The notes below the pieces were generated by a model. That model had not been told where the DNA came from. It did not search any database and worked only from the letters and a program-made list of their open reading frames with translations. Both the position numbers and the translations under genes were made by a program. Positions 10,488 through 25,524 of a stretch of 64,000 bases of DNA are shown here, piece after piece; the stretch's first letter is position 1, and each line of letters starts with the position of its first letter. Location of the stretch: the NCBI GenBank assembly GCA_008690995.1, contig VRMN01000011.1, positions 1 to 64,000 of the forward strand. The letters run 5' to 3'. Origin of the DNA: Porphyridium purpureum (taxonomy: Eukaryota).

Positions 10488-13400
10488 TCAAAGCTGCTCG
10501 AATACAAATCGTCTGAACTCGGCGCTGCCGATAAAGCTGCTGCTGCGGTACATTCCCGCATTGAAAAGCGGTGAGCTGATGAGATGCCGGTGAATTGTTA
10601 TCAGTCGCTTTCGCATTTCATCACGCACGCTTCTGGGAGGCGGCGAATCCTCGCGAATCGCGGCATGCACAGAGGACGCCACGAGGTACGCCGCGCATTC
10701 CGCAATATCACGTACAACGCGAGCCTTTTCCCGCGAACACATGCTTGTCCGCTGGAGGTTTAACTCATGCACAGCATACAGCAATATGGCGACCAACAAG
10801 CCTATCGTTGGTGCACCAGACAAGCTCAATGAGTTTGTGTCAAAAAATGTGGATCCACCAGAGCGAGAAATCGCATTTCCCGCAGAGGTCATGGTGTCAC
10901 CAACACTGCCGACGCGTAGACGCCGCAGGGTAACCAGCGCGTTTCGCAGGCAACGAAGCGTACTCAGCGACAGGAATTCTCCGAATGATTGTTGCGGCTC
11001 GGAAAGCTCCTCATCGTCGTCAAGGCTGGCTTCCAGGTTGCCATCTCCGATACTCGATCCATTGTGACCAGTTGTGGGTGTTGACTTAGAGGCCAGCGAA
11101 GCCGGCGTCGGCGGCATGGCGGGTGACGGCGGAACAAGCGCACGTCTCAGCGCTGACTGTGGCGTCCTAAACTCGGAAGTTCTTTCCGACCGCACCAACA
11201 GCGTTTCACCAGCATTCCCCAAACGTGCATTTGCCGATACCCCAAACTTTGGCGCTACCACGGACGCCGGCAGCGGGCTTGCCTGCTGGGCAAAGCGGTT
11301 CGCGCTTGCGCCATCCCTGTATCCTGTACTCCTGGTCCCATCCGCAAAGTCTACATCCGACGCCGCCTCAAGCCCAGCTTCATCCTGCAATGCGCTTTGA
11401 ATTTCTAGAGCGGATACTGGGCGGACCCATCTTTCTAGCGGCTCCGCGCGCAGCAAGCGATACGTCTGGTACACCAAACCAACCATGCACGAGCCAATAC
11501 GATCAAAAACGCCTGCACTCTCCGTCAGATTGACATTGTTGGTCATGCGCCTTAACTTCGCGCCGGTCTCATTAGTACCAAAGCACGAAACAAGTGCCCA
11601 GCAAAACGCACTAGCGTGCTCCGCGTTTTGAATCTGAGCTAAGGTCAGCGCTCGCAGAGAGAACTGTGGCTGAAGAATAAACACGTCCGTGCAGTCGCAA
11701 AGCGTCGTACCCATACGAAAGCATGATTCTGCTACACCATGGGAGAGTCTATGTATGTTTCCTTCCCCCACACTCAACAAAGCATCTGTTGTAATGCGCA
11801 AGTACATCCACCAAATGTCCAGCCAAATACTTCGCTCCATAGTGTCGGCATCGTAAACACCGCCACCTTGTGCAAGCTTTGGAAACACTAGCACACAGTC
11901 GCCAGTTCTTGACAAAAAATCGAGTACCAGGTGCAGGCCTGCGCGTCGACCAACCGTGTTACTCTCAGCATCTCCAGCAAACAGACGTTCAAGACATCCG
12001 AGAGCGCTCAATAGCAATTTTCTGCTTTCATCTTCTTCATTACACGTAAACACCGTTTTGTCCGCCTTCGTCATGAGCCTGACAACGTGCAGCATCACAT
12101 CCGCAGTCAGCGCCACCGTCGCGGCCAAATTGCGCGTTCGGTCAGCTTCCTGCTTTTCTATTTCACTCTGAGCTTTCAAGTCAACCTCGCTACCGGAAAC
12201 GTGTCCAGAGTTGGTCCCAAGCAAAGAAAGAACAGATAAGATGTCTAATGCGCGCGCTCGAATAGCATCGTGCTGATCCATCTGGCCGCGATGTCCAACC
12301 ATTGAAACATTTTCGTCCATGTACCTGCCTTCAAGCTCATGTATGGTTGCAAATAAGGCAAGGGACACAGCGTGGCGTGCTTCAGTGTCAATAGCGCCAC
12401 GATTCACCAGGGCACCGATAAGCACGACCAGCTTCTCCAACGTAGATAATTCAGGCCGTCCCACGGCTGAGTCAATCGCGCCCACGCGGCGTCGCTCCGA
12501 CATCCAGCGACAAAGTTCGGTTGTCGTCCGGCTCGCTTGTCGGAGAGGCACCGAAAGCTGACTAGCAGACCGAGGAAAACGCGCATCAGCGCCGATGATG
12601 TTGTCATCAACATCACGACTACTCATCAAAAGTAAATGAGCTAGTTCAAGCCACTCATTGAGTGCATTAGAAGCGTGTACTATATGCTCGATACCGCCGG
12701 AAAACTCACTCACCAGATGGATGCAACGAAGTGCCATGATCCGTAGCCAAGCACTGGTTGGGGACGCACACTTTGTCGCGGCCGGGGCACCACTGTCCCC
12801 CAGCGAAAATGCAGGCACTTCTATGGCTAAACGGCTAGGAAGAGCCGGGCGAGGAGGGGAACAGTCAAGTCGAACCATTAAGCCTCGCTTCAAACCGCCT
12901 TCTTTCGGGTCAAAGCAGGCCATGGCCGTGACGAACACGCGGAACATCGTAGAGCATGAAGCGAAGGACTGCAAACGAATTCGAAAGAACATGGGACCGA
13001 GCATCAACGGAAGCGGCAAGCCATTCGTGCCCTCCCTCACTCCGCTGCCATGCTTCCTTTTCCCTTCCACAGTCATGAGACGGCGTATGTGAACAAGCGT
13101 GCGACGATCACAAAACAGAAATGGCCTACTTGCAAAGAAAGACTGCAGATCCGACTCGCCCGCTGCGAGATCAAGCGGAGCAGAGACTTCTGCACCAACA
13201 GTGTCGTTTCTGTCACTGCCCGAAAGAAAAATTTCGACAGTGCTTCGAAGCTGTGAGTCGGCTTCGAGGAGCCCTAGTACGCTACCGCCACGCTCAATGT
13301 CTTCGATCTCATCAACTAAGCCTCTCTGAAAGGCATCTTTCAGCTTGAGTTCCGAGGCCAGCGATTCGGCGAGGAAATCAAGTAAATGGCGCCAAGATCC

Positions 13401-16400
13401 CGCCGCGGAAGGTTCACTAGCTTCCAACCACTTGCAAATGCGGCGCCACGCACTCCTCGCGTCCGAAGCATTAGGCTCCTGAGTTGATGAAGTCAGAGCT
13501 TCTGAAGAATTCACATAGAAACTACCAGCAGCCACGCAATCGCAAAGCAAGAACATGACATCATGCGCAAGCTCGGCGACGAGAAGCGCAGGCTCGTTCA
13601 AGTCCAAGGAATCTGCGTGTAAAGTGGCAGGAGAAGATGAACCAGCAACGTGGCACGCGAACGAACTCAGTATCTCCAAGGCGCGTGCTAGCAAAGCACG
13701 CACACCGCATGCATCCCACAAGCCGGACAGCCAAATGGGACCGAGGCGGTCCCATACGCTGCGGACCAAGGTCATGATGCCTCCTAATTCCGCTAGCAAC
13801 CGAGCTACGCGCCTGTGGGCCCGCACTAGCTCTTCTTGATTCATCGTTTCAAAAGCACTCACGATGACGTTAGCCCGCACAAATACGGCCTTGAGAATCG
13901 AGCCGTCGTACATCTCTTCTACTTTTAAGCCGTGCTGGGGTTCCACATGCGTCCCCATCACCTGAAGAAGCTTGGGATGGATGAGCGCACGCATAATCGC
14001 ACTCTGATCTGTGGCCACAGACGCATCCAAGAACTCCAACAAGGGTGCCGACTCGCACCTCTCTGAATCATTTTCTAAGACCAATATAAGCCCTCTTGTC
14101 ATTTGTTCCATCATGAAGTCTTCCTGCGAATGCGGAGAGATCGAAATAAGCATCATCGAGTTCACGCTATCGCCAACACCATACGAACTTTGGCCAGGAC
14201 CGATCGCAATTTCACTCCCAAAGGCAAAAATTTTGCAAAGCAAGGTTAAGCATTCGGCACTCGCACTTCGCAGGAACTGCAAATCATCATGCTCAGCTCC
14301 CGCAGCATGCTGTGTTTTCACGGCCAGAAAGCCACGCCCGAGGCCTGCGCACATCTGAGCCAGCACGGGGCAGACCACAGAGCTTTGCTGCAAGTACGAC
14401 AGAGCGACATTCGCACGTTGCTGAGATATGGTGCCAAAGACAAGCCCCGTATAAATCCATCTCAAGGCGTTTCGCCAGAACCGTAGCAGGGCAAACAGGC
14501 AACCAACAAAGGACAACGATGGCAATGAAACCAGAATACCACCACCGGTGTGAAATGCGTGCAAAGTATGATGTAAGCACAATGCGAGCACGTGCGAGTG
14601 GTCTAAAACCGAACTGTAGCTTCGGAAGCCATCCAGTAGCTCGAATGCTACGTGCGGAACGTCCCATATATTCTGCGGTGGACTCTGCCCTGAAGAATGG
14701 AAACCAGTCGCAAAGGTGCCACGCAAGCCGTGCTGTTGCTGCTTAAAATGAAGATTGTCGAGCAATCGAAGCCACCATGGCAAAGCACTACCCAGAGTAA
14801 ATGTCAACGTACCTCGCACGATCGGATCCGCATGAGCACTTTCATTATCGGATTTGTTTGCAAAGGAATCGCGCACCATATCTTTGTACGAACGCACCAT
14901 GGATAGCAAGAGCGTGACTTGGTGTAGTGTGTTGTCTTTCCAACCTCGGGCGAGCAAGTCTGGCAATACGTGATCACGCCACGTTAAGTCGGAACCGAAA
15001 ATACGACGAAGAATACGCTCTTTCCGAAGGCGGCTGCCGAGGTCAAACAGTTTGTTCAACGCAGCAAACAGCTTTTCCAAGATGAGAGGTATACCCAGTG
15101 ATTCAGACTCGGATTCACGCACCGCCAGTGTACTAACGATTAGGCGAAGAATGAGCTCGTCGTCAACGTCACATACAAAGCCAGAAGTTGACTGTTGACT
15201 GGAGGCAATCTCGTGAGCCACACGCGCAACCAGGTCAAGCGACGCCACCACCCACGACGGATCAACGCTGGCATGGTTAAAGCCTGTCGCAATGAGTGAC
15301 GACACAACGTTATCCCACTCGTGAAGGATCGCGAGCACAATCATCCACCCATTCCACACACTATGCCAAATAATCAGGTCGACATCCCCAGCTGCGGCCG
15401 CCATACCCGCCGAGCCGCGCATGATCCACACGTCCTTCTCGTTTGCTGTTGCGCCCGGTACGATTCCGGTGCTAAAGACTCGATATGTTTGCTTTAACAG
15501 CACGCGCTGCTGAACTTCTGATTCACACAGCCCTCCCAACAAATTCACCGCCTCTCTGAAGTTAATGTCGGACTCCATGGCGCCTGCAAAGGCCGGCTCA
15601 TCCTCAGGCACGGCGGAATCAAGAAAGATATCTGGCGGACTTGGTGCCACTGTGGTGAGCGTCGTCAGACCGGTGCGAAGAAGTTCCTGCGCGACTTGAG
15701 CAGTCAAGGAATCCGCCGCAATGCCTGCAAGCAACTTGAGTAAAGGCAAAGCGTTGTGCGGAAATACAAGAATACCATACCGCAGAAGAGCATTGAGCCC
15801 ACGCATTCGCATGCTGAGACGCGTCTCCCTGCTCCACATCAGCTGACACGCCGCTGCGTCCACCTTCATGACCTGACCCACGACTGAGCAGAAAACGGGC
15901 AACCGAACGAGTCGTGCGCCTCGAAACAGGTCTAGCAGCGGGTGCGTGTCTGCAAACAAGCACACCAAACCTGCAAATGCCGCACACACCTCACGCGAAC
16001 AAGAAACCGCAAGGAAGAGCCCACCCAACTGCGACAGGTGATTTAGACTCCTATCCAGCCACTCGAAGACATTGCACTCGTCAATGGCGATTTCCAGATA
16101 TCTTTGCGCACGGCTGATGGTATCTTTTGTACCAGCAGGCAGCACTATGGCGCAAGCTCTCAGATAAGATGCCCACGCGAGCAAAAGTGAACCAAACAGG
16201 CCGCTTTTTTGCGGGCCGCTTTCTTGCTCGTGCTCATCCAGCAAAGAGTTGATTTGCGCAATGTGCTCTTCCTCAAAGACGCTGAGCCGTAACTGCTGCT
16301 GCATCTCCGGCGTCAGAAGAGTAGAGTCGCTTGAGATGGTGCTTTGATCTGGTTCCTCCGTCAGATCGGACCGTGATGCCAAATCCGCGGCGCTCACCAA

Positions 16401-17333
16401 TTGGTCGAGATTCATGGCGTTGATCAGACATGCGGCCACCACCAGATCAAAAACAAGACCAAATGCACTGCCATCTGGTTCTGCCGACGAGTGCATGGCA
16501 GTCTGGTCGTACGTAAGCGCTGCACGCATAAATGAGACCAGGTCATTTCCTGAACATTCGCTGCTGCGCAATAGCTCGACAGCAAATTCAAAGAGAAACT
16601 GAGCGACACCGGTACGGGAAAGTCCACCGGGTCCAGCTGAACGCACCTCTGCAGCGGATTTTGACCACGAAACTGAGCGCAGCGCCTCCGAAGCGTCGGT
16701 TGCGATACGTTCATTTTTGGACAGAAACTGGCGACACGCGACAACCGCGGCACTGTTCGTTGACTCTTCCCTGGCCGTTGTGCAGATGAGTGCCAAGCAC
16801 TTGAATCCGAAAATAGTGTCCAGCTCTTGCCACTCGGCCAGCTTAAACATGGGCGCCAGCGCCGCCAATTCGTTCGTGTCCAAATGGTCGACCGTCTGAC
16901 GAAGGTGTCGATGGACCTTCCCGCGCAGCAAATCGAGCTGCGGGGCGTACGCGAAAGCTAAGAAATCAAACAGCAAGGTGGTTGCTTCCTGATATTTCAA
17001 GTTGAACGCGTTCGTAATCTCAACGACGTAAGCATGGACGCCAGGCGCCAGCGACTTTTGCTGATTCTGCTCCGGTGAGCCTCTTGATTCTCGGAAGTAG
17101 ATTCGAGCGGGAGGAGACTCACGGGCATGCTGATCTACATGATTCGATAGTGCGAGCACACTTTTCGCGACTAGATTACGCAACGCCAGCGTGTGATCCG
17201 CGAACAACTCGTCTAGTCGCTTTCCGCGCTCCGCATCTTCATCTTGATCCGCGCAAGCCACGACCCATTGCTGGATTTGCGCGTACAGTTCCGTGAAGCA
17301 TAACGGCGCTGGCTGTGGACTTGATGCGACCAT
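10488..17333 (-). CDS. Large alpha-solenoid protein, probably nucleoporin Nup188 (Nup188/Nup205 family)
   Basis: About 2280 aa, intronless and helical; LLLAWASY, AIDECNVFEWL and VFPHNALPLLKLLAGI resemble the Nup188 N-terminal region; first ATG at 17333. Confidence 0.5.
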   Translation of the reverse strand: MVASSPQPAPLCFTELYAQIQQWVVACADQDEDAERGKRLDELFADHTLALRNLVAKSVLALSNHVDQHARESPPARIYFRESRGSPEQNQQKSLAPGVHAYVVEITNAFNLKYQEATTLLFDFLAFAYAPQLDLLRGKVHRHLRQTVDHLDTNELAALAPMFKLAEWQELDTIFGFKCLALICTTAREESTNSAAVVACRQFLSKNERIATDASEALRSVSWSKSAAEVRSAGPGGLSRTGVAQFLFEFAVELLRSSECSGNDLVSFMRAALTYDQTAMHSSAEPDGSAFGLVFDLVVAACLINAMNLDQLVSAADLASRSDLTEEPDQSTISSDSTLLTPEMQQQLRLSVFEEEHIAQINSLLDEHEQESGPQKSGLFGSLLLAWASYLRACAIVLPAGTKDTISRAQRYLEIAIDECNVFEWLDRSLNHLSQLGGLFLAVSCSREVCAAFAGLVCLFADTHPLLDLFRGARLVRLPVFCSVVGQVMKVDAAACQLMWSRETRLSMRMRGLNALLRYGILVFPHNALPLLKLLAGIAADSLTAQVAQELLRTGLTTLTTVAPSPPDIFLDSAVPEDEPAFAGAMESDINFREAVNLLGGLCESEVQQRVLLKQTYRVFSTGIVPGATANEKDVWIMRGSAGMAAAAGDVDLIIWHSVWNGWMIVLAILHEWDNVVSSLIATGFNHASVDPSWVVASLDLVARVAHEIASSQQSTSGFVCDVDDELILRLIVSTLAVRESESESLGIPLILEKLFAALNKLFDLGSRLRKERILRRIFGSDLTWRDHVLPDLLARGWKDNTLHQVTLLLSMVRSYKDMVRDSFANKSDNESAHADPIVRGTLTFTLGSALPWWLRLLDNLHFKQQQHGLRGTFATGFHSSGQSPPQNIWDVPHVAFELLDGFRSYSSVLDHSHVLALCLHHTLHAFHTGGGILVSLPSLSFVGCLFALLRFWRNALRWIYTGLVFGTISQQRANVALSYLQQSSVVCPVLAQMCAGLGRGFLAVKTQHAAGAEHDDLQFLRSASAECLTLLCKIFAFGSEIAIGPGQSSYGVGDSVNSMMLISISPHSQEDFMMEQMTRGLILVLENDSERCESAPLLEFLDASVATDQSAIMRALIHPKLLQVMGTHVEPQHGLKVEEMYDGSILKAVFVRANVIVSAFETMNQEELVRAHRRVARLLAELGGIMTLVRSVWDRLGPIWLSGLWDACGVRALLARALEILSSFACHVAGSSSPATLHADSLDLNEPALLVAELAHDVMFLLCDCVAAGSFYVNSSEALTSSTQEPNASDARSAWRRICKWLEASEPSAAGSWRHLLDFLAESLASELKLKDAFQRGLVDEIEDIERGGSVLGLLEADSQLRSTVEIFLSGSDRNDTVGAEVSAPLDLAAGESDLQSFFASRPFLFCDRRTLVHIRRLMTVEGKRKHGSGVREGTNGLPLPLMLGPMFFRIRLQSFASCSTMFRVFVTAMACFDPKEGGLKRGLMVRLDCSPPRPALPSRLAIEVPAFSLGDSGAPAATKCASPTSAWLRIMALRCIHLVSEFSGGIEHIVHASNALNEWLELAHLLLMSSRDVDDNIIGADARFPRSASQLSVPLRQASRTTTELCRWMSERRRVGAIDSAVGRPELSTLEKLVVLIGALVNRGAIDTEARHAVSLALFATIHELEGRYMDENVSMVGHRGQMDQHDAIRARALDILSVLSLLGTNSGHVSGSEVDLKAQSEIEKQEADRTRNLAATVALTADVMLHVVRLMTKADKTVFTCNEEDESRKLLLSALGCLERLFAGDAESNTVGRRAGLHLVLDFLSRTGDCVLVFPKLAQGGGVYDADTMERSIWLDIWWMYLRITTDALLSVGEGNIHRLSHGVAESCFRMGTTLCDCTDVFILQPQFSLRALTLAQIQNAEHASAFCWALVSCFGTNETGAKLRRMTNNVNLTESAGVFDRIGSCMVGLVYQTYRLLRAEPLERWVRPVSALEIQSALQDEAGLEAASDVDFADGTRSTGYRDGASANRFAQQASPLPASVVAPKFGVSANARLGNAGETLLVRSERTSEFRTPQSALRRALVPPSPAMPPTPASLASKSTPTTGHNGSSIGDGNLEASLDDDEELSEPQQSFGEFLSLSTLRCLRNALVTLRRLRVGSVGDTMTSAGNAISRSGGSTFFDTNSLSLSGAPTIGLLVAILLYAVHELNLQRTSMCSREKARVVRDIAECAAYLVASSVHAAIREDSPPPRSVRDEMRKRLITIHRHLISSPLFNAGMYRSSSFIGSAEFRRFVFEQL

Positions 17334-17502
17334 CTTACCCCGTTCATCAACCTTGTGCTCCGCCCCGGTCTTGTTCCTCTCCTCCTGCTCCCAATTGTGT
17401 CTCAACTCGAGAACCTGTGGCGCATTCACGGGGAGAGGCCAAGTCGAAGCTAGAGAAAGAGAGACGGGGAGAGAGGGAAAGAGAGTGCGCGAGGACGCAG
17501 GA

Positions 17503-18921
17503 ATGATGGCAGCGAAAGCGCCGCGTGATGGAGATGCACTGGTCGGATTTTACGCACGAAAGATGATGGAACAAGCTTTGCAGGGCATGAGCCTGACAGA
17601 GGAATTCGCAAAGGTGCATGCGCGCATGGACGCGCTGGAGAGATTGTGCGCTCAGCAGCTCGTTCTGTTGGAGCAGTTTGTGCATGGGCAGGGCCAGAAG
17701 GCAGAGACTAGAACAGGGCGCGCGCTGGATGTTCAGGAAAAATGGCGTCAGGTAGATGGTAAATGGCTCGCAAAGTGTGGAATGAACGATCGCGTCCACC
17801 AGGCAGGGAATATGACGAACGCGAACGAGACAGAGGCCTTATGTGCGGTGCCAGAGGCCAGTTTGGTGGCGTCCGCTCGGACTCCAACAGGGAATTCACT
17901 GCGAGCGAGCAAGGAAGCACGAAACGAAAACTTGGTAGAAGAGCCCAAATCATCCGTTCGACCTGCAGCTCATCCGGACCGCGCGGCTGCTCCAATGTCG
18001 TTTGCAAGAGGTGCCGTGCGGGTACCGATGGATGAATTGGATGGTCATCCGGTTCGGCAAAAGTTGGAGTTTGACGGGATTGCTCGCTTGAATACCGGAT
18101 GTCCTGGAGACGATGCGATGCGGAACCGCGTGGCGGGCTGCACAACGATCGCCGCGGATGAGACGGTCATGCATGTGGACGCTCCGGCAGAATCGCCGTT
18201 GAGACTGACACCGGCAGACAGGCGGCCAGCAGTCAATCGAGATGAGCTTTTGTATACACAAAATTCCGACTGCTCAACAGAAGAACCGCCACCGTCCCTG
18301 CATCCCGAAGAGCAGCATGTGACAGGTGCGCCGGCAGTGGCGGCGCCAGCTGGACCCTTGCCAAGTAGAGATAGCGGGACCGGAACACATGGGTCTGCAG
18401 ATAAGCAGGCGGTCTTGCAGAGACCCAAGACTCCCACACTGCGGGAGCGTATTCGGATGAATGCGGCACCGCCCAAGCCGAGCTCGCGGGGAGAGACACA
18501 AGACGTCGAAGGATTCGACGGCGCTCCCTCAGCGCTGACGGGAGAGGCCGGCCTATCCACTGCGGCACCTGGAGCGGAGCCCATCTTCACGGGCCCGCGT
18601 AAAGCGGGCTACCGAGCCTCTCGAAGCCCTAATGCACGTACAGCAGCTGCAGACGGCGTGCGGCGCCTTGTCGGTGTACGCAAGGTGAACGTGCCCAAGC
18701 GCGGCAAGGAGGCGCGCGCCCAGCAGATTGGGGCGACATGCGACGAATGCCGGTACACGTACATTGCGCTTGCGCACGGCGACGTCAACAAGGCCGAGCG
18801 GATGATGCAGTCCTGCTCGCGGCATCGACACGACTACCTTCCGCCTCTCACGCCGCCACACTGGGCCGAAAACTCATTCCCAGAAACGCTCACTCAGCCT
18901 CCGCCTGGCACTCAAGACTAA
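17503..18921 (+). CDS. CtIP: CtIP/Sae2/COM1 DNA end-resection factor
   Basis: C-terminal SAE2 domain: KRGKEARAQQIGATCDEC...CSRHRHDYLPPLTPPHWAENSFP (CxxC, RHR, TP); N-terminal helical segment; disordered middle. Confidence 0.85.
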   Translation: MMAAKAPRDGDALVGFYARKMMEQALQGMSLTEEFAKVHARMDALERLCAQQLVLLEQFVHGQGQKAETRTGRALDVQEKWRQVDGKWLAKCGMNDRVHQAGNMTNANETEALCAVPEASLVASARTPTGNSLRASKEARNENLVEEPKSSVRPAAHPDRAAAPMSFARGAVRVPMDELDGHPVRQKLEFDGIARLNTGCPGDDAMRNRVAGCTTIAADETVMHVDAPAESPLRLTPADRRPAVNRDELLYTQNSDCSTEEPPPSLHPEEQHVTGAPAVAAPAGPLPSRDSGTGTHGSADKQAVLQRPKTPTLRERIRMNAAPPKPSSRGETQDVEGFDGAPSALTGEAGLSTAAPGAEPIFTGPRKAGYRASRSPNARTAAADGVRRLVGVRKVNVPKRGKEARAQQIGATCDECRYTYIALAHGDVNKAERMMQSCSRHRHDYLPPLTPPHWAENSFPETLTQPPPGTQD

Positions 18922-19279
18922 TTATACGCACGACGGCGACCCACCGCCGTTCATTCCGTTCTGTTCTGGAACTGTCGCTCCACCGATGAGAACCCGCCAA
19001 GCTCGAAAGCCTGGGTGGCACACGCATGAATACTAAACACACAGGATTTTCCCACGAGGCACTCCTCCTTTACCAAAGATAGCCGCATTCAGCACGCTCT
19101 GCGCGGAGCTTCATGCGCCAGTTGGCACAGGTGCCGACGCACCATTTCGTCCGGGGCCATTGTTGTGACTGCTGCGTGAGTGTGCCCGTGCTCAACCCTT
19201 GCATCCCACATTCCCGCCCCACCATTTATCGGTTTCAACTGAACCGCACAGCCGTGAACCGTTTCGCCGCGGCGACGCA

Positions 19280-19586
19280 TGTTAAGATGTGTGGAGCATG
19301 GCGGTTAACGGTTAGTGGTTAGCTTTTAGTCGTTAAGCCGTTAAGCTGATCACTGATAAGGGACGTGACTTGAGAAGGGAAACTCTCGGCTGCGGTTGTT
19401 GGCCGGCGGTAGGTGCGTAGGAGAATGGGTCCGTTGGCTTATAAGTCGCGCGCGAAGCTCGGTGCTGAGCGCGAGCGCGGTGGGCTTCGGTAGGGAGTGC
19501 GAGTTGGAAAAGTTATACGTTTAGAACTTGATAAACTTGGTCGTTGGATTGGAGGTTGTCCATCAGCGGAGCGAGGTTTCCGAACA
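19280..19586 (+). repeat. 5' LTR
   Basis: Direct repeat of 24770-25076; one mismatch seen (T19414 vs A24904); TG...CA ends; TTATAA at 19439-19444. Confidence 0.97.
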
Positions 19587-19599
19587 TAAACGTATTACC

Positions 19600-20778
19600 A
19601 TGTCAACGAGAGGCGGTGCAGCGGGAGGAGCCAGGGGAGCGGCGGCGCGAGGAGGATCGCGTGGACGCGGAAAAGGGCACCACCTGACCACCGCTCGGGA
19701 GAAGGGGGCGATGGCGGAACTGCCGTTGTTAAAGTACACGGCGCGCGGATCCACCCCCGCCTACACTGTGGTCGCTTGGTTCAAAGAGTTAGGGAACTAC
19801 GTCAGGCTCCACTTTGGAGAAGTTGGACGTATCTTCGATCTGAGCGAGCATGGAATGGAATACCCAACAGCAAATCCTCCATCTGCAGAGGCATTCGCAG
19901 CGGCAGAATTGTCGGGCCTCCCTCAAGATGTCGCAGCTCTCGTCAAGGCCGAGAACGTGCGCATAGTCATGCAGAGCTACCATAAGAAAGTCCGGGAGCT
20001 CGAAGAGGCCAAACCGAAGGTGTTTGCCGTGATCGTGGGGCAGCTGAGTGAAGCGTCTGTAGACGCACTGAAGCGCATGGGCTCATTCGATGAGCTGGCA
20101 GCTTCTGCCAACGATCCCCTGGAGCTCGCCAAGCAGGTGCTTGCAGTGCACATGACGCTCGGATCTGACAGCGCTGTTCAGAATCAGCTGTATGCGGCGG
20201 AAATGTTCCACAAGCTGGCAATGGAACCGGGTGAGTCGCTCGTGCATTTTCGAGCCAGGTTCGACGCGACAGTGCGAGCCATGGATGCCGTTGGCGAGCA
20301 CACAGGAGACGCGAAGAGGCTGGCTGCCGACTTCGCGCGCAAGCTCGAGATTTCGGGAGCGCACAGAAACACCATAGTGCACCTGCAAAACACGGGCGCG
20401 GTACTGGACACAGTGAATGAGATTGTGCGAGCAGTTTCAAACTATAAAGTCGTTCCAGTTGGAGCGGTCCCACGGGTCGGTACAACTTTTGTGGCAGGAC
20501 GTGAAGACGACGAAAGCAACGATGAGGATGAACCTCATTCCGGCAGCAAACCCGTGAAGCGCAAGGTGGATGTGAGCCGGGTGCGCTGCTACAATTGCCA
20601 GAGGATGGGCCACTTCAAATCGGACTGCACTGAACCAAACGTGGTGGTCACTCTTCGCCAGGAAGTTGAAGAGATGAAGAAAGCCCTGAGGGCAAAGAAG
20701 AAAGAGCGCAGCACTACGATGGTGGCCGTAGACGACGATGAGGCGACAGGTGGAAGTGAGTCGGGGAGCGACATTTGA
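19600..20778 (+). CDS. gag: Gag (RGG-rich N-terminus, capsid region, CCHC zinc knuckle)
   Basis: ATG 13 nt after the LTR end; CYNCQRMGHFKSDC knuckle; ends in TGA. Confidence 0.92.
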   Translation: MSTRGGAAGGARGAAARGGSRGRGKGHHLTTAREKGAMAELPLLKYTARGSTPAYTVVAWFKELGNYVRLHFGEVGRIFDLSEHGMEYPTANPPSAEAFAAAELSGLPQDVAALVKAENVRIVMQSYHKKVRELEEAKPKVFAVIVGQLSEASVDALKRMGSFDELAASANDPLELAKQVLAVHMTLGSDSAVQNQLYAAEMFHKLAMEPGESLVHFRARFDATVRAMDAVGEHTGDAKRLAADFARKLEISGAHRNTIVHLQNTGAVLDTVNEIVRAVSNYKVVPVGAVPRVGTTFVAGREDDESNDEDEPHSGSKPVKRKVDVSRVRCYNCQRMGHFKSDCTEPNVVVTLRQEVEEMKKALRAKKKERSTTMVAVDDDEATGGSESGSDI

Positions 20779-23700
20779 CGGCGCGGCGCGTTGCTGCCAA
20801 AGCAGCACCGCGCGACTGTCTGCACAGGTGAGACGTTTGCAGTAGGAGAAATCGGGATTGACAGTTGCTCCAGCGACCACGTCTTTCGCGACCGTGACCT
20901 CGTGAAAAACACGAGGCGCGCAGCGAAAACGCTATTGTTGAACGGCATCAATTCGGCAAAGCCAGTGCGCATCGCATGTATTGGGGACAGTGAGTTTGGC
21001 ACTGTCTACCTTTCGCGCAAGGTCTGCGGAAACGTACTCAGCCTGGGACGGTTGCGTGCTGACGGGCATAAAGTGCTCTTTCATGATAGGTCTAATACAT
21101 TTAGACTCTATTACGATAAAAGCATCTTTACGTTCCGTCCGCGCGCAGACCACATCTACACTACCACACTCCCAATCACCATAGGCAAAACACTGCTGCT
21201 CGAAGGAACAGCTGCGGAACGAGAAAATGATTTTTCGCCGAGACAGGTGGCAAGCGCAAAAGCGGCGCGCGATTTGGCGCGCAGGATGGCATATCCGTCA
21301 CTCAAAAACTTGAGAGACGCACTGAGAAATGGCGGCATAATGAATTGCGAGGTGAGCGCGCGTGACGTAGATCGCGCGGAGACAATCTGGGGCCCCGCGG
21401 TACCGGTTCTAAAAGGACGAGCCACCGGCCACAAAAGCCCGATCGAGCAGGAGTCCTGTCAAGCACGGATGAGTCGCGAAATATCACTGCGCACAGACTT
21501 AATGTTTGTAGACGGCTATGTGTTCGTTGTGAGCGTGTGTAAGCCCATGCAATATATATTGCTGGATCGTGTCACGAGCAAGAGCGCTCATCATCTGCAA
21601 GAGGCGTTGCATAAGCAGTTCGCTAGCTTGAAAAGCTTCGGTGCAAAAGTTGTCGAGATCCGCAGCGACCCAGAGAGCGGAATTGTGGCCGCAGTTGACT
21701 GGATGAAAAGCAATGGTGTGATCCCAGACATACTGGCCGCAGGCGAGGCTGTCCAGCCCGCAGAAAGGGCCATCAGAATGGTGAAAGAGCGAATGCGGTG
21801 CGTCCTGAGCGGCTTACCATTCCGAATGCCGAAGAGCCTAACCGGGTTCCTGGCTGAGTATGTAGTGCAGCGCATAAACATGATGAAAAGCTCCGTTGCG
21901 CCAGAGTACGATGGGCGATCGCCATATGAGGATCTGACAGGGCGCCTGGTTGACGCGAAGAAGGAGCTAGCACTCGGATTTGGAGACTATTGCCAGTCGC
22001 ACAGCAAGAGCGTCGACAGCACAATGGCCGAACGAACGACAGGATGCATCGCGCTGCGTCCGACCTTAAACCTGGCCGGATCATGGCTGTTCTACAACCT
22101 CAATACAAAGAACATCATCACGCGACAGAAGTGGAACCAGTTACCGCATCCAGACTTCGTTATATCCAGGATGAACGAAATTGCTGAGCAACAGAGTGCG
22201 AGTGGTGTCGTCACAGATATTGAGGACCAGCCGCATGACGACGAAGAAGAGGACGTGGAGGGCTTGCTAATCGATGAGCAAGATCGGCCGGAGCTGAACG
22301 CAGCGGCACAGGAAGATGTCGACCTTGTTGTGGTGGAAGCGGATGAGGACGGCGACGCCTCGGTGGAAACGGCAGAAGAGAACGCGCGCCAAGCACAAGG
22401 CGATCCAGTCCTGGAAGAGCTGTGCACAGCAGAGGTAGCCAGTAATGCAGCGCAGGAGGCACTCGGAACTGAGACGCGCATTCCAACCGAACAAAGCCGC
22501 GCGGAGAGTTATAGTAATCCGCAACAAGACGTTAGAGCTCTGCGATCGCAGCTCACTGTTAGAATGCAAGCGCCGCTGGGTACCGCAAAGACGCGCTCGC
22601 CGACGAGCACGCAAGGACCTGGACAGCAACATTTTATTCCATCTGCCTCACAGATTGTGCCTCGCGCCACAGCACCCGAAGCAAGTCCAGCGATTCGGCA
22701 AGAATACCAAGGCAGCACGCTTGCACCGAGCGCTTTGAACGACCAGCGGCTTTCAGACATGAGCACGTCAGGTGGTCGGAACGGTTGCGAGCCAGAGGTC
22801 ATTGTTGATCCGCTGACAAGAACAAGCACAGCGACATACATCGACGAGCACATGGTGAAGCTGGCGGGAAAGAGGGCGCGAGCCAACGGTTCTGTGAGAG
22901 CAGAAGACATCGCCGAGAAAGTGGCCAAGCTGCAACGCAGGATTGACGAAATTGATCAGCGTGAAAAGGAAATAGTGGAAATACAGAAAAGGACAGAGAA
23001 GAATGATCGGAGCAAAACCGGAAAGCGGAAGCAGAGCAGTGAGGACTGGGCGGATGACGAAGAGTCTCACAAAGCGGACGTCAAAAAAGGACGAGCCTTT
23101 GTGCTGTCTGCGAATAAGAAGGGTCTTACAGCAAACATGAGTCTGATGTCGGCTTTCCGAAAGCATGGCTTGAAAGCGGTCCGTGCGGTCGTCAAGGAGG
23201 TTGCGCAACTGGATAGTAAGTATGGCTTTGGGGTTATCACTCCCGTGAGTGTGCAGAGCCTGTCAGAGGCTGAGAGGAAGCAGATCCTACCCACTCACAT
23301 ATTTCTCAGAGAGAAGCTTGACGCAGATGGATCGATCCAGAAAATCAAAGCCAGAGTTGTAGCGGGAGGCAATCACCAGGATCCAGCAGTGTACCCGAAG
23401 AAGTCGTCACCGACTGTTGCCACAGATAGTCTGTTATTGCTCGCAGCAATAGCAGCCAACGCAAAGTACGCTGTGGGTAAGGCTGACTTTCCCGGTGCGT
23501 TCTTGAATGCACTAATGCCTCCTGATGGTCCAAAGGTACACGTGAGGTTGGACAGGTACCTGACGAGGGTGTTATGTGGCCTAGACGACAAGTATCTTCG
23601 TTACGTGCGCTCCGATGGCGGCTTGGTGTGCGTTTTGAAAAAGGCGCTGTACGGAACAATCATGGCCGCGCGCCAGTGGTTCCTGACGGTAAAAAAGATG

Positions 23701-24798
23701 TTGCAAGAACTGCGCTTTTCGCAGAATCGATTCGACGAGTGCGTATTCAGACGCGGCAATGTATCGCTCGCAATACACGTTGACGACATAATCGTGTTCG
23801 CTCCGTCCGCGCGCGAGGTGAAAATTGTGTTGGATGAAATCGAGCGCAGGTACCCAGGACTGCAGAGAGAGCAGGGGGATACCGTCGAGTACCTGGGTAT
23901 GCGCTTTGCATTTGACAGAAGTACAGCCACTGTGCTGGTTAGCATGAATGGATACATCGGCACCATGCTGAGCGAGTTTGGTGCAAGTGGACGGGCGCGC
24001 ACGCCGGCAGGTACTGACCTGTACGAAGTGGGATCGACCGAAAGGCTCACAAGAGATAAGAAAGACGATTTCCACACGTGGACAGCGAAGCTGTTGTACG
24101 TAGCCAAACGCGTGAGGCCAGACATCCTTACGGCCGTCGGGTATCTGACGACGAGGGTGCACGAGCCGAACATTCGCGATTGGCAAAAGCTGGAGCGTGT
24201 CATGAAGTATTTGGCAGCCACCCAAGAAATGGGTCTGCGACTTGGAGCGAGCACGGAGAAAACAGTGGTCTGCGGTGCGGACGCGTCGTACGGTGCATGC
24301 GACGACTATAGGTCGGTCACGGGGACTTCGGTCACGTTGGGTACCGGGGCTGTGTACGCCAGGAGCAGCAAGCAGAAGCTTGTGACAAAAAGTTCGACAG
24401 AAGCCGAACTTGTCGCTGCCAGCGACAGTCTCGGGCAGGTGCTTTGGACGGCGCGGTTCCTTCGCGATCAAGGCTTCGAGCTCAAAGAGAGTGTGTTGCT
24501 TCAAGATAACAACTCTGCCATAGCGCTGATGAAACACGGCAAGCCAACCTCCATGAGGACAAAGCACATCGGAATCCGGTATTTCGTCGTGCACGACGCA
24601 GCGGATAGAGGCGACATACGCGTCGTGTATTGCCCAACCGAAGATCTGACCGCAGATCTGTTAACGAAACCTCTCCAGGGCAAGGTCTTTGAAAAGCACC
24701 GTGCGAACTTGCTCGGCTCCGCGAGCACGAAACACGTTGCTTATGACAACACGCGCCAAGGAGGGAGTGTGTTAAGATGTGTGGAGCATGGCGGTTAA
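20779..24798 (+). CDS. pol: Pol (protease, integrase, reverse transcriptase, RNase H), in frame with gag after a single UGA
   Basis: PR IGIDSCSSDHV; IN RTDLMF / RSDPESG / AERAIR; RT KARVVAGG, ADFPGAFLNA, LKKALYG, HVDD; RNase H DASY, SSTEAELVA, QDNNSAI, RTKHIGIRY; stop codon lies inside the 3' LTR. Confidence 0.95.
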   Translation, partial: RRGALLPKQHRATVCTGETFAVGEIGIDSCSSDHVFRDRDLVKNTRRAAKTLLLNGINSAKPVRIACIGDSEFGTVYLSRKVCGNVLSLGRLRADGHKVLFHDRSNTFRLYYDKSIFTFRPRADHIYTTTLPITIGKTLLLEGTAAERENDFSPRQVASAKAARDLARRMAYPSLKNLRDALRNGGIMNCEVSARDVDRAETIWGPAVPVLKGRATGHKSPIEQESCQARMSREISLRTDLMFVDGYVFVVSVCKPMQYILLDRVTSKSAHHLQEALHKQFASLKSFGAKVVEIRSDPESGIVAAVDWMKSNGVIPDILAAGEAVQPAERAIRMVKERMRCVLSGLPFRMPKSLTGFLAEYVVQRINMMKSSVAPEYDGRSPYEDLTGRLVDAKKELALGFGDYCQSHSKSVDSTMAERTTGCIALRPTLNLAGSWLFYNLNTKNIITRQKWNQLPHPDFVISRMNEIAEQQSASGVVTDIEDQPHDDEEEDVEGLLIDEQDRPELNAAAQEDVDLVVVEADEDGDASVETAEENARQAQGDPVLEELCTAEVASNAAQEALGTETRIPTEQSRAESYSNPQQDVRALRSQLTVRMQAPLGTAKTRSPTSTQGPGQQHFIPSASQIVPRATAPEASPAIRQEYQGSTLAPSALNDQRLSDMSTSGGRNGCEPEVIVDPLTRTSTATYIDEHMVKLAGKRARANGSVRAEDIAEKVAKLQRRIDEIDQREKEIVEIQKRTEKNDRSKTGKRKQSSEDWADDEESHKADVKKGRAFVLSANKKGLTANMSLMSAFRKHGLKAVRAVVKEVAQLDSKYGFGVITPVSVQSLSEAERKQILPTHIFLREKLDADGSIQKIKARVVAGGNHQDPAVYPKKSSPTVATDSLLLLAAIAANAKYAVGKADFPGAFLNALMPPDGPKVHVRLDRYLTRVLCGLDDKYLRYVRSDGGLVCVLKKALYGTIMAARQWFLTVKKMLQELRFSQNRFDECVFRRGNVSLAIHVDDIIVFAPSAREVKIVLDEIERRYPGLQREQGDTVEYLGMRFAFDRSTATVLVSMNGYIGTMLSEFGASGRARTPAGTDLYEVGSTERLTRDKKDDFHTWTAKLLYVAKRVRPDILTAVGYLTTRVHEPNIRDWQKLERVMKYLAATQEMGLRLGASTEKTVVCGADASYGACDDYRSVTGTSVTLGTGAVYARSSKQKLVTKSSTEAELVAASDSLGQVLWTARFLRDQGFELKESVLLQDNNSAIALMKHGKPTSMRTKHIGIRYFVVHDAADRGDIRVVYCPTEDLTADLLTKPLQGKVFEKHRANLLGSASTKHVAYDNTRQGGSVLRCVEHGG

Positions 24799-25076
24799 CG
24801 GTTAGTGGTTAGCTTTTAGTCGTTAAGCCGTTAAGCTGATCACTGATAAGGGACGTGACTTGAGAAGGGAAACTCTCGGCTGCGGTTGTTGGCCGGCGGT
24901 AGGAGCGTAGGAGAATGGGTCCGTTGGCTTATAAGTCGCGCGCGAAGCTCGGTGCTGAGCGCGAGCGCGGTGGGCTTCGGTAGGGAGTGCGAGTTGGAAA
25001 AGTTATACGTTTAGAACTTGATAAACTTGGTCGTTGGATTGGAGGTTGTCCATCAGCGGAGCGAGGTTTCCGAACA
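24770..25076 (+). repeat. 3' LTR
   Basis: Copy of 19280-19586, followed by the TSD ACGCA. Confidence 0.97.
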
Positions 25077-25251
25077 ACGCATCGGCTCCAAGCACGTGTA
25101 CCCACGTCGTGATCAACTGTACTTTATTCCTGCACTCAAACACTGTACACGGGCACAGTACTTCTGCGGCGCACGCAGTTGAGGCATCACGAAAAAGGGT
25201 GACCGCAAAATGGCCAAAAGAGTCACAGTTTGATATGAAAACGGTGACCAC

Positions 25252-25276
25252 ACCCTAGTAACCCTAGGAACCCTAG
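25252..25276 (+). promoter_or_regulatory. Three ACCCTAG units (telo-box-like) upstream of Tudor-SN
   Basis: ACCCTAGTA-ACCCTAGGA-ACCCTAG with 9-bp period, about 250 bp before ATG 25525. Confidence 0.4.
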
Positions 25277-25524
25277 AGACCGCACCACGTCAACTCATGA
25301 AAGAGAAAAATCTGAGTGTGCGTGGTCGCGGTACGTGGCAAGGGTTTGTACGAGGGGGGGAGAGAGGCAGAGGGAAGGAGGGGGAAAGGGTGTGTAGGTG
25401 GGGTGCGTGTGTGTGTGTGTGCTGTGTGGGTAGTGTGGGTAGTGGTGTGAGAGGTGTGGGAGGAGGGTAGGGTGTTCGTGTGTGTGTGTGTGTGTCGAGA
25501 GACAGAGCGACAGGAAGAGCAGAG

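What the first reader, a model, noticed from the sequence alone, without database searches (positions are those of the whole stretch)
19512..19598. Candidate self-priming (tRNA-independent) Ty1/copia retrotransposon
Seen: the sequence right after the 5' LTR is TAAACGTATTAC (19587-19598), with no TGG complementary to a tRNA CCA end. Its reverse complement GTAATACGTTTA matches GTTATACGTTTA in the LTR (19512-19523) at 11 of 12 positions, with 9 contiguous pairs ending exactly at the LTR boundary. A 3' end at A19523 would therefore prime precisely at the terminal CA. The 63 nt between the two segments can fold back (TGGA/TCCA, TCGTTG/CAGCGG, AAAC/GTTT), bringing them together. Known: S. pombe Tf1 and relatives (Ty3/gypsy) prime with the first 11 nt of their own mRNA after cleavage, whereas copia elements normally use full or half tRNAs. 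Inference: self-priming in a copia lineage; I do not know of a described case but cannot search. Caveat: the only TATA-like motif is about 70 nt upstream of 19512.
Basis: partly seen in the sequence, partly recalled or inferred. Interest (0 to 1): 0.88.

Follow-up and report, generated by a model that had tools for sequence, protein, structure and literature searches.

The report
Self-priming copia retrotransposon in red alga
A young jumping gene of the red microalga Porphyridium has, where such elements normally bind a host tRNA, a short stretch that pairs with its own terminal repeat, and most of the distant relatives tested keep such a pairing with different letters, so it likely starts copying itself from a piece of its own RNA, a trick already predicted for one plant copia lineage.

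Summary
Confirmed. The stretch is the primer site of an intact, very young Ty1/copia element of Porphyridium purpureum (LTRs 19280-19586 and 24770-25076, one mismatch, TSD ACGCA). PBS 19587-98 pairs with LTR 19512-23 (11/12; 9 bp perfect; P about 0.001). There is no tRNA 3'-end or half-tRNA register. Among related metagenomic elements (RT-RH 33-45% identical), 32 of 44 tested have a perfect 9-21 bp LTR-PBS duplex starting right after the LTR's ACA; mismatched pairs reach 9 bp in 0.6% of cases, and alignable LTRs show compensatory changes. Self-priming is therefore very likely, though cleavage and priming are inferred.

It is not new for copia as such: Neumann 2019 predicts it for the plant TAR lineage (Houba, Osr-1). 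I found no paper on algal copia; this scan noted it repeatedly in diatom windows.

The primer may thus carry a leader. Tf1's extra 'pretzel' duplexes are not above chance. Side finding: a fixed in-frame UGA between gag and pol, probably read through.

The parts
19275..19279 (+). left target-site duplication ACGCA
   Evidence: the same 5-mer is at 25077-25081; run X1 holds the empty site (record 1 and loose end at 19280)
19280..19586 (+). 5' LTR (307 nt, TG...CA)
   Evidence: 306 of 307 identical to the 3' LTR
19440..19445 (+). TATA-like word TATAAG, probably not the positioning signal
   Evidence: differs in other LTR subfamilies seen in loose read ends; absent before the arm in 31 of 32 relatives
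19499..19515 (+). zone where sense RNA 5' ends cluster (likely transcription start zone)
   Evidence: 229 of 234 X24 reads and 95 of 120 X23 reads at 19567 come from a variant LTR copy with a non-element flank
19512..19523 (+). predicted self-primer arm (perfect core ATACGTTTA 19515-19523); predicted cut after A19523
   Evidence: the cleavage is inferred by analogy with Tf1
19528..19583 (+). predicted R-U5 fold-back that brings arm and PBS together
   Evidence: MFE fold; not tested for conservation
19587..19598 (+). primer-binding site TAAACGTATTAC, complementary to the LTR arm and not to a tRNA end
19600..20778 (+). gag ORF (392 aa, CCHC knuckle) ending in TGA 20776-20778
   Evidence: PF00098
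20776..20820 (+). in-frame UGA-CGG with a downstream stem-loop: likely readthrough signal between gag and pol
   Evidence: fold z -2.88; no change in the high-depth X1 contig 20530-21250 and no splice joint in RNA reads
20779..24798 (+). pol ORF without its own early AUG: protease-like DSC motif, integrase, RT (PF07727, aa 833-1070), RNase H ending ADLLTK
   Evidence: the protease, integrase and RNase H labels rest on recalled motifs and on database names of P0123
24758..24767 (+). polypurine tract AAGGAGGGAG, 2 nt before the 3' LTR
24770..25076 (+). 3' LTR (holds a second copy of the arm at 25002-25013)
25077..25081 (+). right target-site duplication ACGCA

Best explanation
This is an intact, recently inserted Ty1/copia element of Porphyridium purpureum whose primer-binding site is complementary to its own LTR, and it likely primes reverse transcription with a piece of its own RNA instead of a tRNA. 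Shown: the 9-bp (11 of 12) duplex starting exactly at the LTR end, the lack of a tRNA signature, and lineage-wide conservation of such a duplex with changing letters. Inferred: the genomic RNA starts in the LTR at or up to about 16 nt upstream of the arm; 19512/15-19523 folds back onto the PBS; the RNA is cut just 3' of A19523, by analogy with Tf1 probably by the element's RNase H; the freed 3'-OH is extended on the terminal CA to make minus-strand strong-stop DNA covering 19586 back to 19524. The primer would be 9-12 nt if the RNA starts at A19515/G19512, or about 21-25 nt with a 5' leader if it starts at 19499-19503 as RNA-seq suggests. That leader is predicted to pair with 19603-07 just behind the PBS.
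For: Chance is about 0.001 for this element. With a fixed rule (perfect stem starting right after an ACA near the gag ATG, partner within 300 nt upstream), 32 of 44 related loci give 9-21 bp and 33 of 44 have p<=0.05 against 200 shuffles. PBS tested against another locus's LTR reaches 9 bp in 0.58% of 1722 pairs. In L057 and L062 a second LTR fixes the LTR end independently, and the stems (14 and 15 bp) start there. Compensatory changes in alignable LTRs: L016/L018 two pairs, L003/L075 one pair, and 4 of 10 pairs in five sister-clade loci, with 50 of 50 cells paired and 0 of 500 shuffles reaching the covariation score. PBS positions 5-9 vary freely and mean pairwise identity is 0.49, which no fixed tRNA explains. 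TGG is absent in 33 of 33 stem-bearing loci including the window. In relatives the arm begins at an initiator-like TCA in 19 of 30 against a 4% background, as expected if the primer is the RNA's 5' end. The two nearest-type loci L001 and L002 also have 9-bp stems. Precedent: Tf1 shown (PMC7175516 passage), TAR predicted.
Against: No cleavage product, primer RNA or cDNA was observed. RNA-seq places about half (0.55 in X24, 0.51 in X23) of the coverage rise upstream of 19513, so the arm is probably not the first nucleotides of most LTR transcripts, unlike Tf1. The caveat is that these reads come mainly from another LTR copy and random-primed reads do not map starts exactly. This element has TTA rather than TCA at the arm start. 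The perfect core (9 bp) is at the short end of the lineage and below Neumann's 10-bp screen. Tf1's accessory duplexes are not above chance (window p 0.41 and 0.66; 3 of 33 and 2 of 33 loci at p<=0.05). Three tested loci (L014, L063, L065) show no stem even under relaxed rules. A few reads (3-4 in X23; 3 from one start in X24) show a subfamily with five PBS changes whose matching arm was not seen. Host tRNAs and other host RNAs could not be searched. The DNA of the closest P. purpureum families (P0004, P0005) was not available.
Confidence: 0.85

Rival explanations
1. Self-priming, but from the other copy of the arm or in trans. If transcription starts upstream of the arm, the arm lies in R and is also present at the RNA's 3' end (25002-25013) and in abundant LTR-only transcripts. 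A cut there, or a short LTR-derived RNA, could supply the primer.
For: RNA-seq puts many 5' ends upstream of the arm, and LTR-variant copies give abundant transcripts through the arm. Covariation cannot tell the two LTR copies apart.
Against: The 5' copy folds onto the PBS locally with pair probability 0.95-0.98. In relatives the arm starts at an initiator-like TCA (19 of 30), which points to the 5' end. Tf1 uses the 5' copy.
Confidence: 0.08
2. The duplex is a conserved structural element (packaging, dimerisation or translation control next to the gag AUG), and priming uses something else, as suggested for the conserved hairpin of fungal GalEa elements.
For: Fungal GalEa copia lack a PBS and carry a conserved hairpin of unknown role (PMC5445492 passages). 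The stem ends 4 nt before the gag AUG here.
Against: The GalEa hairpin lies downstream of the LTR, and those authors found no LTR complement. Here the duplex starts at the first base after the LTR in 32 of 44 relatives whatever its length or its distance to the AUG (13-63 nt). That is exactly the register a primer needs.
Confidence: 0.04
3. A host tRNA half, tRNA fragment or other small RNA primes, and the LTR match is secondary.
For: Half-tRNA priming is known in copia (Osser, Bryco, Bianca; FunCo1). PBS positions 2-3 are nearly always AA. Host tRNAs were not searched.
Against: None of 24 registers tested (offsets 0-5, ends 38-41) fits the recalled anticodon-loop rule Y32/U33/R37, and none ends in CCA. 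There are 30 different 9-mers among 32 relatives, with compensatory changes in the LTR.
Confidence: 0.02
4. Chance complementarity in an A+T-rich patch.
For: Only 9 perfect pairs; whole-region fold z is -1.9 to -2.8, and -1.1 when starting at 19515.
Against: P about 0.001 for this element, and the same geometry recurs across the lineage against shuffle and cross-pair controls.
Confidence: 0.01

Closest known systems
TAR lineage of plant Ty1/copia (Houba, Osr-1; Fourf in GyDB's Tork), predicted self-priming (PMC6317226)
   Same: Copia domain order, 5-bp TSD, and a PBS complementary to the element's own 5' LTR directly after the LTR.
   Different: Host is a red microalga. RT scores only 71 bits on PF07727, with no other copia Pfam domain apart from zf-CCHC. 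None of the best 120 RT-RH hits carries a land-plant name. gag and pol are split by an in-frame UGA, whereas TAR is mostly one ORF (79%). No tree against TAR could be built.
Tf1/Tf2/Tj1 and the Tf1/sushi group (Ty3/gypsy); self-priming shown for Tf1
   Same: PBS adjacent to the terminal CA pairs with an upstream LTR segment of similar length. Tj1, Tosmo1-3 and Tcry1 also have an in-frame TGA-C at the gag-pol junction.
   Different: Copia, not gypsy; no chromodomain hit. 9 perfect pairs instead of 11. The arm may not be the very 5' end of the RNA. No significant 'pretzel' accessory duplexes.
CoDi-like copia of diatoms (PMC2806351, PMC2774666)
   Same: Microalgal copia with at most one stop or frameshift between gag and pol. 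Unchecked notes of this scan report the same self-pairing in diatom copia.
   Different: Membership not tested, as no named CoDi sequence came up. The CoDi papers, in the passages and term counts I saw, say nothing about priming.
Fungal GalEa copia with a Conserved Hairpin Site (PMC5445492)
   Same: Copia without a tRNA PBS.
   Different: Their hairpin lies wholly downstream of the LTR and is conserved in sequence. Here one arm is inside the LTR and the letters covary.

Membership tests
Ty1/copia LTR retrotransposons | LTRs TG...CA, TSD, PPT | tested here: met
Ty1/copia LTR retrotransposons | gag then PR-INT-RT-RH with copia-type RT | tested here: met
   PF00098 in gag; PF07727 at aa 833-1070 of pol, behind the integrase region; database names 'Copia protein' for relatives
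tRNA-primed copia (complete tRNA) | TGG within 0-5 nt of the 5' LTR | tested here: not met
   0 of 33 stem-bearing loci
half-tRNA-primed copia (Osser, Bryco, Bianca, FunCo1) | PBS complementary to an anticodon arm ending in the anticodon stem | tested here: not met
   0 of 24 registers fit the recalled Y32/U33/R37 rule
half-tRNA-primed copia (Osser, Bryco, Bianca, FunCo1) | match to an actual host tRNA | not testable with these tools
   no genome held; no tRNA gene in the window
Tf1/sushi self-priming group | Ty3/gypsy chromovirus (RT-RH-INT order, chromodomain) | tested here: not met
   copia order, no chromodomain hit
Tf1/sushi self-priming group | PBS directly after CA complementary to an upstream LTR segment | tested here: met
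Tf1/sushi self-priming group | primer is the first nucleotides of the RNA | tested here: inconclusive
   relatives: initiator-like TCA at the arm start in 19 of 30; this family: about half of the coverage rise upstream of 19513, mostly from another LTR copy
Tf1/sushi self-priming group | three-duplex 'pretzel' structure | tested here: not met
   leader-U5 duplex p 0.41, U5-end hairpin p 0.66; 3 of 33 and 2 of 33 loci significant; energy-based proxies only
Tf1/sushi self-priming group | RNase H-dependent cleavage frees the primer | not testable with these tools
   needs an experiment
TAR lineage (plant copia) | LTR complement of at least 10 bp starting 0-5 bp after the 5' LTR | tested here: inconclusive
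   9 perfect, 11 of 12 with one mismatch; rule
TAR lineage (plant copia) | falls in the TAR clade of INT-RT-RH trees | not tested
   no TAR reference available (REXdb FASTA too large); indirect signs are against it
TAR lineage (plant copia) | single gag-pol ORF (prevailing form, 79%) | tested here: not met
   in-frame TGA at 20776-78; TAR figure
CoDi-like diatom copia | falls in a CoDi clade of pol trees | not tested
   no named diatom sequence among the hits or cluster members seen

The most novel reading that the evidence does not exclude
A large, mostly environmental lineage of microalgal copia elements, reaching into red algae, evolved self-primed reverse transcription independently of both Tf1/sushi and plant TAR. 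It does so with a bare 9-21 bp duplex and no pretzel. In this red-algal member the primer is cut from an RNA that starts 10-16 nt upstream of the paired arm, so a self-primer need not be the RNA's first nucleotides.
Probability: 0.35. Interest if true: 0.7.

Novelty: new variant of a known kind. Interest (0 to 1): 0.5.

Why it matters
Self-priming has been shown experimentally only for a gypsy-type element, and for copia it is a sequence-based prediction in one plant lineage. A second, very diverse copia lineage with covarying primer and PBS suggests that tRNA-free priming arose repeatedly, and that copia RT/RNase H can make its own primer without Tf1's elaborate structure. This copy has near-identical LTRs, open frames apart from one probably programmed stop, an empty allele in another run, and expressed LTR copies. 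It is therefore a good substrate for the first direct test in copia. PBS-based annotation tools will miss or mislabel such elements.

Tried and rejected
- No whole genome was held, so there was no host tRNA comparison and no look at the other P. purpureum families' PBSs.
- The viral-contig scan gave no relative.
- Rfam at E<=1 over 19200-21000 gave only a chance miRNA match far below its gathering score.
- A 10-of-12 pairing between 19541-52 and 19598-609 looked like Tf1's U5-leader duplex, but it is no better than shuffles and is not general in relatives: rejected.
- Tracing the lineage to named diatom CoDi or plant TAR proteins failed: the hits are unnamed.
- The RT-RH tree (quick search only, no outgroup, 76 rows) shows the P. 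purpureum families as one group (98) inside a group (96) with L001, L002, L003, L010, L043, L058, L074 and L016. It cannot show an independent origin.
- Run X16 (share 0.13) held only LTR variants followed by non-element flanks and gave no PBS.
- The NCBI gene models that splice out the TGA (P0123, P0124, P0128, P0131) are not supported: no joint in RNA reads at depth about 70 in X23.
- The primary Tf1 papers were not held.
- Of 77 loci, 44 entered the fixed-rule test. The other 33 lacked a located gag ATG or enough upstream sequence, and some were examined later under relaxed rules.

Full report
1. The element. The finding lies at the 5' LTR boundary of a complete LTR retrotransposon. The LTRs are 19280-19586 and 24770-25076 (307 nt, one mismatch), the target-site duplication is ACGCA, and a purine tract lies at 24758-24767. 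gag (19600, 392 aa, CCHC knuckle) ends in TGA at 20776-78, and pol continues in the same frame to 24798 with the RT behind the integrase region. The RT-RH region is 100% identical to a protein that NCBI names from Porphyridium purpureum; the next hits are other P. purpureum copia families (64-42%) and unnamed environmental proteins (45-37%). One DNA run (X1) holds the empty site, so the insertion is polymorphic.

2. The observation. The letters, coordinates, 11-of-12 pairing, 9 contiguous pairs and 63-nt gap are all as stated. In 20000 dinucleotide shuffles of the LTR, a match this good arose with P 0.0008 (9 perfect pairs anchored at the LTR end) and 0.00095 (11 of 12). The predicted fold forms the stem and the three inner helices, with stem pair probability 0.95-0.98 for five trial 5' ends. 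The reverse complement of the PBS does not end in CCA at offsets 0-5. None of 24 registers fits an anticodon arm under the Y32/U33/R37 rule, which I recall from general tRNA knowledge. Host tRNA genes could not be searched.

3. Relatives. A profile scan of metagenome contigs gave 77 loci; their RT-RH is 33-45% identical to this element. I located a gag ATG with enough upstream sequence in 44 of them. An open search for the longest stem upstream of gag, without any anchor, mostly found a stem starting at or just inside '...ACA'. I then fixed a rule: a perfect stem starting right after an ACA near the ATG, with its partner within 300 nt upstream. Under it, 32 of 44 have 9-21 bp and 33 of 44 have p<=0.05 against 200 shuffles each. 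Pairing one locus's PBS with another's LTR reaches 9 bp in 0.58% of 1722 pairs, and this element's PBS reaches 7 bp or more only with its own LTR. The rule was written, so it is not a blind test.

Of the 12 misses, seven (L007, L015, L019, L021, L025, L034, L074) show 10-13 bp stems once the ATG position or end motif is relaxed. L035 and L042 are RT-identical to stem-bearing loci and had no gag hit to anchor the ATG. L014, L063 and L065 show none. Eleven further loci outside the 44 gave 9-17 bp stems (L008, L009, L018, L028, L032, L037, L040, L054, L057, L062, L071); L044 gave 8 bp; L024, L045 and L076, with short upstream sequence, gave none. In L057 and L062 the LTR end is fixed by a second LTR, and the stem starts there.

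The letters covary. PBS positions 5-9 vary freely and mean pairwise identity is 0.49. Alignable LTR pairs show double changes. In five sister-clade loci, 4 of 10 pairs change on both sides with 50 of 50 cells paired (related sequences, so the shuffle count is not a probability). In 19 of 30 non-redundant relatives the arm begins at a TCA, against a 4% background; only 1 of 32 has a TATA-like word in the 60 nt before it. I read TCA as an initiator from recall. This fits the arm being the RNA's 5' end in most of the lineage.

4. Where the RNA starts in this family. Three RNA-seq runs of the same species label as a DNA holder were laid on the element (about a fifth to a quarter of each run read). 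Coverage on the strand that is sense in most stranded libraries climbs steeply across the arm. In X24 it goes 32 (19488-94), 49, 102 (19502-08), 158 (19509-15), 188, up to 237. Read ends pile up at 19499 (17 in X24, 11 in X22) and 19503 (16 in X23). About half of the rise (0.55, 0.51) is reached by 19513. Because random-primed reads begin at or inside a transcript's 5' end, many LTR transcripts start 10-16 nt upstream of the arm. The caveats are strong: 229 of 234 reads in X24 and 95 of 120 in X23 come from a variant LTR followed by non-element sequence, very few reads cross the PBS (depth 3-7), and a share of starts at A19515 is not excluded. An RNA starting at 19499-19503 is predicted to keep the stem and to add five pairs, 19503-07 with 19603-07. 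A handful of reads show a subfamily with five changes in the 12-nt PBS; its arm was not among the rows shown (14 rows were hidden), so this is unexplained.

5. Mechanism. Most likely (0.85) the RNA folds its LTR arm onto the PBS, is cut after A19523, and the freed end primes on the terminal CA. The geometry and its covariation are shown; the start site is uncertain; cleavage, the enzyme and priming are inferred from Tf1. In Tf1 the first 11 bases pair with the PBS and RNase H cuts between bases 11 and 12 (PMC7175516, passage). Tf1 also needs two accessory duplexes (10.1101/2022.12.06.519325, passages). Proxies for these are not above chance here or in relatives. The rivals are priming from the 3'-LTR copy or in trans (0.08), a purely structural hairpin (0.04), a host RNA (0.02) and chance (0.01).

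6. What is known. PMC6317226 (passages, section 10 and supplementary file 5; files 1 and 3 too large to read) predicts self-priming for 89% of 203 TAR copia elements and cites an earlier proposal for Houba and Osr-1; its survey covers green plants. So self-priming copia is not new. I found no paper describing it for red-algal or diatom copia. In PMC2806351 (passages, section 6) 'tRNA' does not occur and the one 'PBS' is a buffer. PMC2774666 (passages) has no 'PBS' or 'self-prim'. PMC5445492 and PMC3601003 (passages) and PMC4600332 (passages) discuss self-priming for Tf1-type elements or as a hypothesis. Repbase, GyDB and subscription journals were not searchable, and bioRxiv supplements were closed, so an earlier mention may exist. 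The element works like Tf1 and TAR, is not a member of Tf1/sushi, and is probably not TAR (weak PF07727 score, no other copia Pfam domain apart from zf-CCHC, no plant-named hit among 120, split ORF), but no tree with TAR or CoDi references could be built. This scan has noted the same feature in diatom windows many times (31 findings hold the search words). Those notes are unchecked and are not counted as support.

7. Side finding. The TGA between gag and pol looks programmed. It is unchanged in a collapsed contig about 4.6 times as deep as the flank, and is not spliced out in reads (23 rows of variants hidden). It is followed by CGG and a stem-loop (z -2.88). Sister-clade loci have an in-frame TGA at the same junction (L043 TGA-CTAG, L010) or overlapping frames (L001, L003, L058). 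TGA-C and TGA-CTAG are known readthrough contexts.

8. Verdict. A real feature, very probably self-priming, and a new variant of a known kind. Interest 0.5: the mechanism class is known and already predicted in copia, but the lineage-wide covariation, the red-algal host, the possible leader on the primer and a young testable copy give it value.

Noticed in passing
window 20776-20820 (+): In-frame UGA-CGG plus stem-loop between gag and pol, probably programmed readthrough. Public gene models of other copies skip it with an intron of about 24 codons that the RNA reads do not show.
   Followed up: partly
L043:1578-1584 and L010:4683-4685: Sister-clade elements also have an in-frame TGA at the gag-pol junction (TGA-CTAG in L043); L001, L003 and L058 have overlapping frames instead.
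   Followed up: partly
L056:2442-2459 and L028:775-792: Two diverged sister elements share an in-frame TGA followed by the same 15 letters (CGGGGCGGCTCCACA), between the protease region and the integrase: a conserved readthrough site at an unusual place.
   Followed up: partly
window 19275-19280 / 25077-25110: Run X1 carries the empty insertion site; the element sits about 440 nt upstream of a Tudor-SN-like gene and about 170-200 nt from telobox-like ACCCTAG repeats at about 25250-25277.
   Followed up: no
window 19460-19586 (variant copy elsewhere): An LTR copy with CG>AA at 19567-68 gives most LTR-derived RNA and reads on into non-element sequence: a likely LTR-driven chimeric transcript.
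   Followed up: no
window 19587-19632: A few RNA reads show a subfamily with five PBS changes and a changed gag start; the matching LTR arm was not seen.
   Followed up: partly
window 20530: Reads and a contig join a different upstream sequence to this element at 20530, inside the end of gag: a second gag type or a deletion derivative sharing the same pol, well expressed in X23.
   Followed up: no
   Followed up: no
window 10488-17549 (-): Intronless ORF of about 2280 aa from its first Met, with no Pfam hit at E<=0.001.
   Followed up: no
L019 and L021, upstream of gag: Stems start after ACG (L019) or TCA (L021) instead of ACA: possibly LTRs with a variant 3' end.
   Followed up: no
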